DNA of 64,000 nt from Octopus sinensis (Eukaryota), in NCBI RefSeq assembly GCF_006345805.1, contig NC_043010.1, positions 65,286,001 through 65,350,000 of the forward strand, written 5' to 3'. Under the pieces are notes generated by a model. It worked only from the letters and a program-made list of their open reading frames with translations. It did no database searches and was not told where the DNA came from. This document shows positions 4,508 to 26,200 of this stretch, one piece after another (the first letter of the stretch is position 1; each line of letters opens with the position of its first letter). A program made the position numbers and the translations under genes.

Positions 4508-4568
4508 ATAAACGGATCGTGCCCAGGTGAATGCGATAATGGATACACCGGATTCAAATGCCAAAAAG
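4508..4568 (+). pseudogene. Truncated copy (3' half) of EGF exon A
   Basis: Identical to 5221..5281 ([20 protein letters not shown]) and followed by the same intron sequence to about 4665, but no acceptor or 5' half. Confidence 0.8.
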
Positions 4569-5152
4569 GTTATTTTTAATACACTTTCCCCAATTATTTC
4601 AAAATTCTCTATATTTGATTTAGTGTTTCTAAACGTAGTTAACTTTCTTCTTTATCATAAGATACTATTTTTATATACCTATATATTTTTATATATTACT
4701 TTATATTATATTTTTATTTTCTAGGTGTTGTAATGTTTTTTTAAAAAAATTTTTTTTTCTGAATCATGATGAACTTTTTTCTCGCACTTTCTTATATGCT
4801 TATATGCTTGTACAGATGAATTATGTTCCATCTTGCGGGATGTTTATATGTATATTCTATGATTAAATGTTCGAATTATGAATTGTTATGCGGATGACCT
4901 TGCATTTGTTTGTTCTATAAGCTTAGTTTGATCATATTAACATCAAAACTTATATTTTCACTATAATATTCCCTACAGTAACTTTAATACTGCCCAAAGT
5001 AGAAATACAATGCTATATTAAATAAATATTTAACCATATCCGGTCTTTGTAACTCTAAAAGTAATTACAGTATCTGGTATATAAAGTGAAATATACTTTA
5101 TCATAAAACTCTTGTAATAGCAAGTCATTTGTAACATCTTTTTTTATTTCAG

Positions 5153-20200: not shown

Positions 20201-23200
20201 TATATACATATATATAGGCGGAATACTCCGGATTCATTTCTAACAATACTTTATTTCAGAATGTTCCAGTGGTAGCTTTGGTCACAGTTGCATAAAGGAT
20301 TGTCATTGTTCCCTAACATGTGACCACGTACATGGATCATGTCCAGGTGATTGTGATGCAGGATACAGCGGATCCAGCTGTCAAGAAGGTAATTTTCTAT
20401 ACTTTATTCCAGAATTATTAAATTAATTTTTATATTTCATTTAATGTCTCTACCTGTTCAATCTTGTTTATGATAACATATTACGTTAAGCGAAACAAAT
20501 GTTTAATGTTTATTTACAGGCATACAATATCTTAATTATATTTCTGAAGTAGAAAAGTATTATAGATATACCTTTTATTATATTCAGTAAATGATATCTA
20601 ATATAATTTGTTTATACCAATATTTTCAGAATGTGAAGGAGATAAATTTGGTGTAAATTGTATAGATATATGTCACTGTGTTGACAACAAAAAGTGCGAC
20701 AGACGAAATGGAACATGTCCAAATGGGTGTGCTGCTGGATATGAAGGTGATAATTGTCAACAAGGTATAATTTAAGTCTATATTATATTTTTAAAAATAT
20801 GTCTCAACCTGTGGATTCGTTTCTTTCTAAATATTTCCTGTTATTTTAATAATGTGCGAGTGGAAAGATGAGAACTCCCAAACGTCATATTAATTTTATA
20901 CGTATATACATACATACATATATATATATATATATATATATATATATATATATATATATATATATACATATATATATATATATATATATATGTATATATG
21001 TCACATATTTGGGTGTCCTCAGTTTAATATGCTTGCATAGTAACATAAGTCAAAAAAATAAAAATATGAATTACTCCTTCGATAATTATTCTAATTGAAG
21101 GGGTAGTTCGTATCTGTCAATATTGCACACCTTTCACATATTGGTTTATGATTGTGATAGATTGTATGACATTTATACGAAAGATAAATGTGATGCCATA
21201 CTATTCATGCCTTACTCATTCCCAGAATATGTGCCTGTGGAATGATATAAATATATTTCGCCAGTAAAAGCAGGGTATGGTCATATTATACATTACAGTT
21301 TTAACTACATAATTCACTGTTTTGATATATCTCACAACAATATTTATGTATATTAATAATGCTTTAAATATGAAACTGAAATTTATGTTAGAGATTATGC
21401 TAGACTGGGAATAAAAGCAGAAACCAAATGTAGAACCGATACCTAACTGATAAACACATGTTTTGTAAGAAGATGGTATATATAGCAAATTATCAACAAT
21501 TGTGTTTTTCTTTCATTATATAGCATATTAATTAATATCTACATCGTAGACTACTGCCATAAATAACCTAAATATTACATTTTTGTAAATCCCACCGACA
21601 ATACATAACCATTGTTAGAGGCTGGAAAATGGTGATAGTTAACTGAAATTATTTTCATATTATACGGTACATCTCTTGTATTATTTAGGAGGATTTACAT
21701 ATGCTGCAATATCAACATCCTAGACTGATTTGTATTTCACTCATGGCATTATTACTCTAAAATGACTAGTTATCTTTAGATATCAGCGTTTACTAATCAG
21801 AGGAAAGCCAAAAAATGACTGATCTACGCGAAGGCTGTATGGCTTTGATGCATACAATATTCGTGCTGGACGAGTCCATAAGCTGACCAAGATACTCAAA
21901 TGGAATAACATCAATGAGGCTTATTTTTCAAAACAGTCCCCCCTGCATTCCATACATTTCTTCAATCGGAGTTGCAGTGCTTGGATCCCATTGCTGAAGA
22001 AGCTTTCAACCCTTAGTTAAAAAATATCGACAGCGGGTATGACATCATCGCCATTGCGATCCTAGTTCCCAGCCAAGTGTTTTTTCATGTTGGGAAACAG
22101 ACATTTGTCAGATGGGACCAAATCAGGAAAGTAGGGTAAGTGATCAACTAGTTCAAAGACACAGTCACACACAGCAGCCATTAAAATCAAGGACTTCTAT
22201 GCTGGAGAATTGAACTGATGAAGCAAAGCCACTTTCATTAGTTTTCCTAGACATTTGGTGTTGATAGCCTTTCGCAGTAAGTTGGCATAGTACTCCAGAC
22301 CTCCAGACCTTGCGTTAACATCAACACACACCCTCACCCGCTAAATTCAACTGCCCACTTTTGCAATGTTGTTAAAGCTGGAATGTCATGCCCTAATGTA
22401 GCAACCATGTCAGCATGAATGTCTTTCCGGCCTAAACCTTTTTTTTGTAGGTATTTGATAACAGCACGACGCTGATTGTGGTACTTTTTGTAGAGAAGTT
22501 GCTGCTAGTTACATTTGAAGTCTTCTTTGAACAATCAAATGTCAGTTTACAATGCAAATATTAGTAAAATGTGCTGAAATTCATTCATGTAGCATTTCAT
22601 AGCTCTAGCCTCATTCCTTCATAGTTAACCAATGAATCTTTCGGCCAACCCTCCTACGTTGTTTTGCTGTGTCATTGGTTTCATACGAATGTTGTTGTAA
22701 CCATGCTTCTGTATTTATTATACATTTTACATTTCACTGAATATAGTTAACAAAATGAGTTTAATCCAAGTATCTGGAAAATATTTATTTCCATCTAAAT
22801 AATTTATTTGTCCATTTTTCATACGAGATAGATTATATTTCTTTATCTTAAGATGCAATGAAATTGATGGACAAGAATAACTTTACTTCGTTGTGGCAGA
22901 TCTTACCGTCTATATAAGACTATAAAATTATCCTTATAGCAATTCGTCTGTAACCACTTCGATTTCAGAGTGTTCCAATGATAGATTTGGTCTTGGATGC
23001 AATGTGTCATGTCGTTGTTCTGAAAAGTGTAACAACATTAACGGCTCCTGTCCAGGTACATGTGATGAAGGATACCACGGATTCAACTGCCAAAAAGGTT
23101 ATTTTCAATACATTTTATTACGCATGAATTATTGATTTTTTTTTAATATTATTAAATCAGCGTATTTACCTTCCTTCTTTATAATAAAACTGATTGAGTT

Positions 23201-26200
23201 TTAATAAAGAGTTATTTCAAATTTCCTTATATTGAGTAAAGATGTATGTTTTGATACCTCATTATATTTCTAATGCAGAAAATGAGTATAGTCATCATTT
23301 TAAGAGTACGGAAGTAAAGCCATCTTATGTATTTTGTCTTCGTTGATATTTTCAGTGTGTTAAGTAGCTCAGTTTGCTACAGATTATATGGAAACATGCC
23401 TCTTTATCAACAATGCGATGGACAAAACTTTATCAAATGGATTTTATTAATAGAAATTTGAGCTGCACTGATATAAAGCTGAATATATTTTCTAAATATT
23501 CATTCATGGATCAATCCGTAACTTTTAATTAAAGTGGGACATGATACCACAAAACACGTTTTGTAATATAATATTAAGTTAAACGAGGTGGATTGGAGGT
23601 AATATACAACCCGAGTGAATTGATAGGTGGTCTGTGATAACGACTGTATAAATGTCTTATTTATAATGTTACTATCAAGAGGAAAAGAATGAAGACCACA
23701 AATTATGTGAACCTGAAATTAACAGGTGTATATAATGAGAATTTAATAGTGTCATAGATAACTTATTTCTCTAATTGATTCTTTGATTCTTCGATATATA
23801 AGGAGTTTGATATATTATGAAGACAATATATACCAGATTTATTAGGAATGAATGTGTAATGTGAGGCATTTCATGTAGTTCTCAGTTACGCTACATCTTT
23901 CTAAGAACATCTCACCGAAATGCCAAATGGCCAGCTCATAAGATTCCCCAGTTATATTTTCTAAGCAACATTAGCCTGTTTTCACTAAGAATGCACGTGG
24001 GAAGTAGTGTCAATTATTGATTCTTTTTTCGTACAGCCTCTACTTATACTAAAGTTATCGTTTTTACTCTGCCTCATTAAAGATGTTTGGTAGTTTCTAG
24101 TCAGAAGTAATTTCTGATATGTCAGTATTCAATCCCTCATCCATCGTAGCTTTATATCCTACGCTTCTCAGCTTCATTTTTGATCTTATTTTCACACAGT
24201 TTTGTTCTGCTTGTCGTGTATTGGTTGCGCTGCACACAATTCTCTTCCTAACATATCAATGTGATATTATCTAATTTATAATTTGATTTTATGTTGCAAT
24301 GGTTTCTGTTGTAGCATTGTCATGCTCTTCTTTGCAACATTCGCGTATCTCGGCGTCGGTTTTTGTATATTTGGCATCCATAAAGATTGAAAATTAGTGG
24401 GGGAAGGGTGCGATCCGTACCTCTATGAATGAGAGCTGCAATAAGTGTTTGAATCTGAGAAGGGTATATATTGAATAAAATCATAATTAACATATTCTCC
24501 TCTATCTTCTTTTACTTAAAACCATGAACTTTTCAACACCCATTCATGTGTGTATATATATGCATATACTATAAATAATAATAATAATTTCGGCAAAAGA
24601 GACCGATAGAATAGTACAAAGAATAAGGTGATTGTTTTCGACCAAATGTGGTGCTCCAGCATGGCCGCAATCAAAATGACTGAAACAAGTGAAAGAGTGT
24701 ATATGTGTATATATATATATATATATATATATATATATATATATATATATATATATATATATATACATACATACATACATACATACATACATACATACAT
24801 ACATACATATATACATATGTGTTTAAGTAACCAATGCATTTTCTCATTTTCCAGAGAAATCAGCCCAAAGTATCCTGGTGTTTGTGTTAGTTCCATTGCT
24901 CTTGTTCATATTACTAATCATAGGACTGGTGACTGCAATTTGGTATTGGTATGTGGATATTTTTTATAACCTCTTTTTTACTTTCAAAAGTAATTAATGG
25001 AGTTAAATGACCATTATAGTTTTAGTTAGTGTCCTTACTATGTGCCATTTTCGGTTATTGTGATATAAGAATACGTCATAATTCATAATTTATATAATCT
25101 AATCCATATAAATATGCAATATCCTTTCCTAATTACCATGTGTACTGATTTACTATTACTGCTTACGAGAATATTAAATTCAATAACTGCCCTTTTATTA
25201 TGCTAAATTCTGAATTAATGTTAGAAGTAAGAACTGTTGCATTACTTTAAGAATTTTATATTAACATATTAAAAACTATTTTTATAATTTTCGTGGGATG
25301 AAAGCAAATTTCGCCTCTGTGTGTGTTCGTGTGTTTAATGGTGCGTGTGTGTATGGATATGTATGTACGTAAGTAGGTAGATACCTACATATATTACTAA
25401 TAATTATGCATTGTTATTTTTGGCACCGTAATATAACTGACAAACCATAGGTGTAGCTAGTTGGAACCGACTCCAAAAATAAAATATATTTATTTAACAT
25501 TTATTTTATCAACTTAGCAGCGATAAATTTGGTAACTGAATGCATTCTGAACGTAAAGGGATGAAAATAATGACCACAAGGCAGTAAGGCCACTCTACGT
25601 ATCTAATAATGTTTAAAATAACAGTATTTCACATAGGTTCAGAATTTAATCCCTATAAGATGGAGAAATAAATATTCTCATATTGGCAATAATATTTCCC
25701 TCGCAAAACTTTGTGATATAAATAAAGGAAAACTAACCTATAAGTAAGTAATGTGTCATATGACTGGTTGTATTACATATTACTTATAGTTTCAGTTTTA
25801 GTATGAAATTGAAGACCTTGCTGTTTACTTTTTAATTCTTTTGATTTATTACTATAAAATTGACGAGCTGTGTTATCATTATTAACAGTACTATTTAACA
25901 TTATACTGGAACTGTATAATATTTAACATGTTTGTCTTAGACAATCACATTGATAATCATACACTTGTAATTCATGAAATATTTCTGTATTTCGTTAGGA
26001 AATTTAGGGGTAAAAGACCAATTGCAAAACGTGACCAGAAAATACGCAAAATACCGGAGAATAAGTATGCAGGAGCCATTCCTGAAGATACAGGTAGGTT
26101 TATTATCTCTCACTGTTTCTTCAATTTTTCTTCTCTGTCTTGTGAACGTTTCGTCGTCTCGGAAAACCAGTGGCTAATTTACTAAGATTTATTATGTTGT

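What the first reader, a model, noticed from the sequence alone, without database searches (positions are those of the whole stretch)
4508..23470. EGF ectodomain built from exon-pair cassettes at every stage of birth and death
All EGF exons are phase 1-1 and come as 129+135-bp pairs separated by a ~250-bp intron. Seen directly: intact pairs (5153/5534 and 20260/20630), a young duplicate pair with both exons disabled (12238/12617), a truncated copy (4508) and an intact A exon whose B partner has decayed (22969/23356). Symmetric phases allow any exon to be added, lost or skipped in frame. Inference: an accordion-like ectodomain that varies in length by allele or isoform, as expected of a recognition or immune receptor.
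Basis: partly seen in the sequence, partly recalled or inferred. Interest (0 to 1): 0.75.

Follow-up and report, generated by a model that had tools for sequence, protein, structure and literature searches.

The report
Octopus receptor swapping EGF exon cassettes
This is the outer, repeat-built part of an octopus cell-surface receptor phosphatase of a known mollusc family, whose two-exon EGF cassettes differ in number and origin between gene copies and animals and likely change by duplication, loss and swapping among neighbouring genes; some of the 'dead' exons may be assembly errors.

Summary
The exons are real. They belong to an Octopus receptor (lectin-like head, EGF array, one membrane span, two phosphatase domains; RefSeq LOC115219456), a member of the molluscan MEGF/galactose-binding RPTP family. 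EGF loss between haplotypes is already published for that family in Biomphalaria. All listed exons, phases and introns check out.

Variation is supported. The window gene has 9 intact A/B exons. An allele-level contig of the same assembly and the O. vulgaris orthologue carry different, shorter sets, while membrane-to-end differs at 2 of 634 residues. Four sequencing runs differ at cassette A1. The gene's cassettes are closest to three different neighbouring paralogues. The 6-7 kb duplication ends at a Penelope-like element terminus with 7 bp of microhomology.

The 'death' side is weaker. The 1-bp deletion appears in 0 of 4 runs, and the assembly has similar frameshifts in non-EGF exons. The GG-acceptor change is real, but RefSeq still uses that exon in 7 of 8 models. 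The fragment block is only half supported. No RNA could be laid, and immune function is untested. The scan noted related octopus receptors before, on other DNA. New member of a known kind; moderate interest.

The parts
4507..4568 (+). 5'-truncated A exon (start of a 162-bp copy, 4507-4668, identical to duplicate unit 12305-12466)
   Evidence: left junction seen in run X6 by 28-30 letters, absent in X1
4669..4937 (+). 3' tail of the Penelope-like element; 4509-4925 is replaced by 19 other letters in run X1 and in paralogue G3
   Evidence: junction 4668|4669 bridged in 0 of 4 runs
4938..12022 (+). tandem unit 1 (A1, B1, intron, Penelope-like copy 1)
5153..5281 (+). EGF exon A1, intact, phase 1-1
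   Evidence: exact in run X1
5534..5668 (+). EGF exon B1, intact; 100% identical to an exon of paralogue G3
8563..12022 (+). Penelope-like retroelement copy 1 (broken RT + GIY-YIG ORF, ~160-bp inverted ends)
12023..18101 (+). tandem unit 2 (about 1% substitutions versus unit 1)
12238..12366 (+). duplicate A exon with GG acceptor, open frame
   Evidence: GG also in C8134 and X6; used in 7 of 8 RefSeq models
12617..12750 (+). duplicate B exon, 134 nt (1-bp deletion; possibly assembly error)
   Evidence: not in C8134 nor in 4 runs
14673..18101 (+). Penelope-like copy 2 (same left flank as copy 1)
20260..20388 (+). EGF exon A2, intact
20630..20764 (+). EGF exon B2, intact
22969..23097 (+). EGF exon A3, intact
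23356..23490 (+). old decayed B exon (stops, indels, no donor); end approximate
   Evidence: shuffle test
24855..24948 (+). transmembrane exon
   Evidence: sequence
25999..28870 (+). two juxtamembrane exons (25999-26093, 28731-28870)
29543..42648 (+). eight exons of PTP domain D1 (KNRY, WPDHG, HCSAGVGRT all present)
42860..56638 (+). linker and degenerate PTP domain D2 exons, stop at 56638

Best explanation
The region encodes the EGF stalk of an octopus lectin-EGF receptor tyrosine phosphatase, built from two-exon phase 1-1 cassettes that differ between gene copies and animals and are likely gained, lost and traded by recombination within a cluster of near-identical paralogues. Shown: the cassette anatomy, a 6-7 kb tandem repeat whose junction lies at the end of a Penelope-like element with a 7-bp microhomology (GTTTGAT), cassettes whose closest relatives sit in three different neighbouring genes, and different cassette sets in other haplotypes. 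Inferred: a microhomology-mediated duplication put the second A1/B1 behind the element; unequal crossing-over and gene conversion then shuffle cassettes; spare exons decay or are skipped at little cost because the frame is kept. The product would be a receptor of variable length and surface whose fucolectin-type head and EGF stalk sense glycans or cells and signal through an active D1 phosphatase, most likely in haemocyte recognition (untested).
For: Architecture: PF22633 E=1e-9 and PF00102 in two stretches; head matches F-lectin FBP32, E=7e-16 (O. vulgaris orthologue). Same architecture in chiton, bivalve and gastropod hits. Five genes or gene parts in 670 kb carry 5, 11, 5, 8 (5' cut by a gap) and 9 intact A/B exons. 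Nearest paralogue switches along the gene: upstream pair G1 97.0%, A1/B1 G3 94.0%, A3 G2/G4 95.6-97.6%, while G1 and G3 are only 72-76% alike around TM/JM. A tree of 18 cassettes is not clustered by gene: 11 changes, shuffled mean 10.9. Empty site without the element in G3 and run X1. C8134 has Ax Bx - element - A1(GG) B1 - element - A2 B2 A3, like the O. vulgaris orthologue, which uses Ax, Bx or B1, A2, B2, A3. O. vulgaris versus window: 25 of 220 residues differ in five positional EGF units, 2 of 634 from TM to end. Nd/Sd is higher in EGF than in PTP, Fisher p=0.013 without Cys codons and 0.026 with them. Three versions of the unit occur in one assembly, and the window and C8134 differ by 0.6-0.9% downstream, which favours a true tandem in cis.
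Against: Unit 1 versus unit 2 divergence (1.04%) is about allele level (0.6-0.9%), so a join of alleles is not excluded; no read spans the 3.4-kb element. Runs X1 and X3 show no GG copy, and the deletion is in 0 of 4 runs. C8134 is poorly polished (2-18 gap events per kb). The lectin exon of this very gene is 2 nt short in the assembly: either an error or a sign that the gene is broken here. Mosaicism also affects PTP exons (D1e closer to G1/G3, D1g 99.5% to G1), so exchange is cluster-wide, not aimed at the stalk. Omega is not significantly above 1. The His aligned with the SCTHT of FBP32 is Ser in this gene, so fucose binding is doubtful. No expression or function data were obtained.
Confidence: 0.7

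Rival explanations
1. The tandem, the fragment block and the small lesions are largely assembly artefacts: two haplotypes joined through the repeated element, with uncorrected indels. The real alleles differ less than the window suggests.
For: Unit divergence equals allele divergence. Run X1 matches unit 1 exactly yet lacks the 417-bp block. The deletion is in 0 of 4 runs. Three frameshifts in non-EGF exons, gaps, and a probable duplicated haplotype (G2 versus G4, 1.8% mismatches) occur in the same cluster.
Against: GG acceptor and element-adjacent A1 are seen independently (C8134, X6). C8134 itself has two element copies around one unit. Window and C8134 differ downstream, so unit 2 is not simply C8134's haplotype. 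Differences from the O. vulgaris orthologue do not depend on this tandem.
Confidence: 0.2
2. The turnover is real but neutral: a repeat-rich cluster recombines freely, stalk length hardly matters, and this copy may even be a young pseudogene. No selection for diversity and no immune role are needed.
For: Omega about 1.0 for non-Cys codons over all pairs; conversion tracts also cover PTP exons; frameshift in the lectin exon as assembled.
Against: All 18 exons from TM to stop are intact and 632 of 634 residues match O. vulgaris. 34 replacement versus 5 silent differences in nearest cassette pairs. Family members lie in snail resistance loci (PMC12297450, PMC13712769).
Confidence: 0.35
3. Regulated alternative splicing, not genomic change, is the main source of stalk diversity, and the GG-acceptor exon is a weak optional exon.
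For: Eight RefSeq isoforms with 6-10 A/B exons, 7 of 8 using the GG exon. A working GT-GG intron is reported for BANP (PMC4176328, passages).
Against: RefSeq isoforms are predictions. One of them (skip of A1) is what alleles with a damaged A1 would give anyway. Exons 99-100% identical between genes invite mis-mapping.
Confidence: 0.25

Closest known systems
Molluscan MEGF/galactose-binding-domain receptor PTPs (Biomphalaria sudanica SudRes1, PMC12297450; 'subgroup 1C' scavenger class F-like receptors of B. glabrata LG5R, PMC13712769)
   Same: Lectin-like head, multiple EGF, one TM, tandem PTP; clustered paralogues; copy-number and EGF-domain differences between haplotypes.
   Different: Here the changing unit is resolved as a 129+135-nt exon pair with a retroelement-bounded duplication and cassette exchange between genes. 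No phenotype association exists for octopus, and orthology to the snail genes was not tested.
Class 1-1 module duplication by intronic recombination (PMC3927616)
   Same: Phase 1-1 EGF exons duplicated and deleted in frame by unequal crossing-over.
   Different: The general mechanism is textbook; this case is unusually recent and segregating.
Draper/MEGF10/MEGF11/SCARF1 EGF-repeat receptors
   Same: Eight-cysteine EGF-like repeats; found as ectodomain hits.
   Different: Those hits carry no lectin head or PTP domains.
Penelope-like elements moving host genes in Adineta vaga (PMC3846280)
   Same: RT plus GIY-YIG element with inverted terminal repeats; microhomology junctions; associated with host gene expansion.
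   Different: Here the element is a passenger and breakpoint of a local tandem duplication (same left flank on all copies); no dispersed, TSD-flanked copy of host exons was seen.

Membership tests
MEGF/GBD receptor PTP (SudRes1 type, subgroup 1C) | Galactose-binding/fucolectin domain in the ectodomain | tested here: met
   PF22633 E=1.1e-9; FBP32 E=7e-16 for the orthologue; first lectin exon is 2 nt short in this assembly
MEGF/GBD receptor PTP (SudRes1 type, subgroup 1C) | Multiple EGF-like repeats | tested here: met
   11 eight-Cys units in P0015 by pattern; PF23301 precomputed; the Pfam scan itself returned no EGF family
MEGF/GBD receptor PTP (SudRes1 type, subgroup 1C) | Single transmembrane helix | tested here: met
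   one hydrophobic exon 24855-24948 read from the sequence; no TM predictor run
MEGF/GBD receptor PTP (SudRes1 type, subgroup 1C) | Tandem intracellular PTP domains | tested here: met
   PF00102, 2 stretches; best solved relative RPTP-alpha E=3e-108; D1 motifs intact
MEGF/GBD receptor PTP (SudRes1 type, subgroup 1C) | Signal peptide | tested here: inconclusive
   exon 73 kb upstream matches the orthologue's first 24 residues at 92%; no predictor run; RefSeq models start downstream of it
MEGF/GBD receptor PTP (SudRes1 type, subgroup 1C) | Clustered paralogues | tested here: met
   five genes or gene parts in 670 kb
MEGF/GBD receptor PTP (SudRes1 type, subgroup 1C) | Adjacent antistasin-like genes; orthology to the snail genes | not tested
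   no search made; no B. sudanica RPTP among the 53 hits
MEGF/GBD receptor PTP (SudRes1 type, subgroup 1C) | Association with pathogen resistance or haemocyte expression | not testable with these tools
   no RNA laid; no phenotype data
Penelope-like element (EN+) | RT followed by C-terminal GIY-YIG endonuclease | tested here: inconclusive
   GIY-YIG E=0.0033, 18.1 bits, below the 22.6 cut-off; two RT-region fragments gave no Pfam hit; a YRDD motif is visible (its meaning is recalled)
Penelope-like element (EN+) | Terminal repeats in direct or inverted orientation; dispersed family | tested here: met
   ~160-bp inverted ends at 92-94%; 41 matches in the genome, a lower bound
Class 1-1 shuffled modules | Exons bounded by phase 1 introns, length divisible by three | tested here: met
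Dscam-type mutually exclusive exon arrays (recalled) | One exon chosen per array | tested here: not met
   RefSeq models chain 6-10 exons in series; predictions only

The most novel reading that the evidence does not exclude
The cluster is a shared pool of EGF cassettes. Genes swap, duplicate and silence pairs so fast that each octopus carries its own set of receptor stalks, and damaged or duplicated alleles (element-linked GG acceptor) persist across species labels under balancing selection: a hyperpolymorphic self/non-self or pathogen recognition locus in cephalopods.
Probability: 0.2. Interest if true: 0.75.

Novelty: new member of a known kind. Interest (0 to 1): 0.42.

Why it matters
Cephalopod recognition receptors are poorly known. 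This family sits in snail loci tied to schistosome resistance, where EGF loss was noticed but not resolved. The octopus locus shows the unit (an exon pair), a breakpoint (retroelement end, 7-bp microhomology) and exchange between genes, which makes the question of whether stalk content sets specificity testable. It also warns that RefSeq models here are unreliable: a made-up N-terminus, a fused paralogue and a non-canonical exon.

Tried and rejected
RNA: no RNA holder was listed as on record, and the planned lay on four guessed-RNA runs gave nothing, so splicing is untested. No listed run holds more than 0.55 of the words of 20100-24700, so none can be taken as the assembly's source. Uncovered A1 intron in run X2 (76% read) is a hole and proves nothing. 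C11630 and C10818 were tested as alleles of this gene and rejected: mostly 83-93% to it, apart from one 96% stretch in each, and closer to G2. The EGF search for other cephalopods returned only O. sinensis, O. vulgaris and one 53% unnamed protein, 7 hits of 8 candidates; O. bimaculoides hits lack the ectodomain, so no third species could be counted. Papers on this octopus cluster: none found in three searches (1, 0 and 4 papers, none on it by title or listing); subscription papers and supplements were not seen. The F-lectin motif was not found spelled out in PMC9316650 (passages), so the meaning of the His-to-Ser change is recalled. Pairs of all exons are not independent, and G4 was left out of them; exons with gaps or doubtful borders were dropped before counting (TM and JM1 in all, D1g of G2). 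Penelope-driven transduction in trans was rejected because all copies share one left flank. No structure or complex prediction was run; neither would bear on the claim.
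Full report
Setting. The window is G000:C14:65286001-65350000. Exons read from the sequence give an EGF array, one transmembrane exon (24855-24948), two juxtamembrane exons, an eight-exon PTP domain with KNRY, WPDHG and HCSAGVGRT, and a degenerate second domain ending at 56638. A search with one exon found the gene as Octopus sinensis LOC115219456, eight predicted isoforms, and an O. vulgaris orthologue, P0003/P0017. Mapping the orthologue places the signal exon 73 kb upstream, then a cysteine-rich region, an EGF exon, a fucolectin-type domain and another EGF exon before the A/B array.

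Observation. The decayed B at 23356 beats 500 of 500 shuffles against B2 and 497 of 500 against B1. With four upstream exons the gene has 9 intact A/B exons. Across five genes or gene parts in 670 kb, 18 of 19 adjacent A-B pairs have 233-262 nt introns, so the pair is the real unit.

The duplication. Self-comparison shows two units, 4938-12022 and 12023-18101, each with A1, B1, an intron and a 3.4-kb Penelope-like element with ~160-bp inverted ends. The element shows a weak GIY-YIG hit (E=0.0033, under cut-off) and belongs to a dispersed family (41 matches). The units differ by 1.04% and 0.94% substitutions. Paralogue G3 and run X1 show the intron before A1 without the element. The element's end and that intron share GTTTGAT exactly at the junction, and both element copies have the same left flank. 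I infer a microhomology-mediated tandem duplication ending at the element's terminus. Inverted terminal repeats and microhomology junctions are described for Penelope elements (PMC3846280, passages).

Is it real? C8134, an unplaced and poorly polished contig, is the only other 99% copy of the cytoplasmic region. It differs from the window by 0.6-0.9% downstream. It reads Ax Bx - element - A1 B1 - element - A2 B2 A3. Its A1 has the GG acceptor, and it shares four derived states with unit 2, but its B1 lacks the deletion. Three versions of the unit in one assembly favour a true tandem in cis. Since unit divergence equals allele divergence and no read spans the element, a join of alleles remains possible (about 0.2).

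Other animals (four runs, at most four samples and three studies). X1 matches unit 1 exactly but joins 4508 to 4926 over 19 other letters, with no fragment and no element tail. X3 has A1 with AG. X6 has an element-adjacent A1 with GG. It also has a contig running from the upstream flank 28-30 letters into the truncated exon (under the 31-letter bridging rule), followed by an unbroken contig 5220-5545; I read this as a 5'-deleted A1 allele. X2 shows B1 intact. The 1-bp deletion is in 0 of 4 runs and the 4668|4669 junction in 0 of 4. The assembly has other small frameshifts in non-EGF exons: the lectin exon of this gene (2 nt) and two exons of G2. Small indels here are therefore not trustworthy evidence of exon death.

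Isoforms. RefSeq models chain 6-10 A/B exons. Seven of eight include the GG exon and none the 134-nt B. A functional GT-GG intron is reported in BANP (PMC4176328, passages), so the exon may be weak rather than dead. These are predictions; no RNA was laid.

Between species and genes. The O. vulgaris orthologue has five A/B exons per model, six in all, of the C8134 type. It differs from the window at 2 of 634 residues from TM to end but at 25 of 220 in five positional EGF units, 11 of 42 in A2 alone. Within G000 the window's exons are nearest to G1 (97.7-99.3% for three exons), G3 (95.3% and 100%) and G2/G4 (93.8-98.4%). G1 and G3 are only 72-76% alike to it around TM/JM. Cassettes do not cluster by gene on a tree (11 changes, shuffled mean 10.9, as low in 141 of 200). 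Exchange also touches PTP exons, so it is cluster-wide.

Selection. NG86 on non-Cys codons gives omega 1.02 (14 A exons) and 0.96 (15 B exons) over all pairs. Nine nearest cross-gene pairs give 34 replacement versus 5 silent differences, omega 1.87 (bootstrap 0.85-8.3). PTP D1 gives 0.24-0.30, and D1+D2 against G2 gives 0.45; Fisher p=0.013. This is relaxed or diversifying evolution; positive selection is not shown here.

What is known. PMC12297450 (passages and section 8) describes clustered MEGF/GBD RPTPs in the snail resistance locus SudRes1, with copy-number change and EGF loss in a resistant haplotype. PMC13712769 (passages) describes the same architecture as subgroup 1C in B. glabrata LG5R. 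PMC13070813 (passages) reports over 40 receptor-type PTP transcripts enriched in oyster agranulocytes, without tying them to this architecture. PMC3927616 (passages) gives duplication of class 1-1 modules by intronic recombination as standard. Three searches found no paper on the octopus cluster; supplements were not read. Two unreviewed scan notes describe related octopus receptors with diversifying EGF blocks, one 877 kb upstream in this genome.

Verdict. A real, recently rearranged and probably polymorphic EGF cassette array in a known molluscan receptor family, produced by a known mechanism. The added value is the resolved unit, the retroelement-end breakpoint and cassette exchange between genes. 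The 'both disabled' and 'truncated copy' stages are only partly verified, and isoform use and immune function are untested. New member of a known kind, interest 0.42.

Noticed in passing
G000:C14:65251020 (35 kb upstream of the window): The first lectin exon of this gene is 2 nt shorter than in three paralogues; RefSeq models start in a wrong frame and lack the signal exon found 73 kb upstream.
   Followed up: partly
G000:C14:64748513-64762778 and 65013002-65013088: Paralogues G1 and G3 have KNLH in place of KNRY and WPDHD in D1, so their phosphatase may be weak or altered (motif meaning recalled).
   Followed up: no
lectin heads of P0015/P0003/P0009 versus P0001/P0008: Two head types: Ser versus His at the position matching the SCTHT of F-lectin FBP32.
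   Followed up: partly
G000:C14:65039805: A second, independent AG-to-GG acceptor change, on an A2-type exon of paralogue G3; the matching exon is used in O. vulgaris P0009.
   Followed up: no
G000:C14:64879000-64935500 versus 65096000-65157500: G2 and G4 are inverted copies with 1.8% mismatches, G4 starting at a gap: alternative haplotype or recent duplicate. RefSeq P0008 fuses G3, G2 and G1 parts.
   Followed up: partly
G000:C11630: Unplaced paralogue with six A/B positions and an internal 13-14 kb tandem duplication at 95-96%.
   Followed up: partly
G000:C25:10775000-10929000: A long array of more than 50 single 132-nt EGF exon hits, a different gene.
   Followed up: no
window 459-1235 (+) and 2627-3268 (-): Broken LINE reverse transcriptase and a Tc1/Tc3-type transposase in the intron before the array; the Tc1 copy recurs beside cassettes of paralogues.
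   Followed up: no
window 18409-18886, 27713-27941, 37604-38013: Long imperfect palindromes (478, 229 and 410 bp), probably non-autonomous DNA elements.
   Followed up: no
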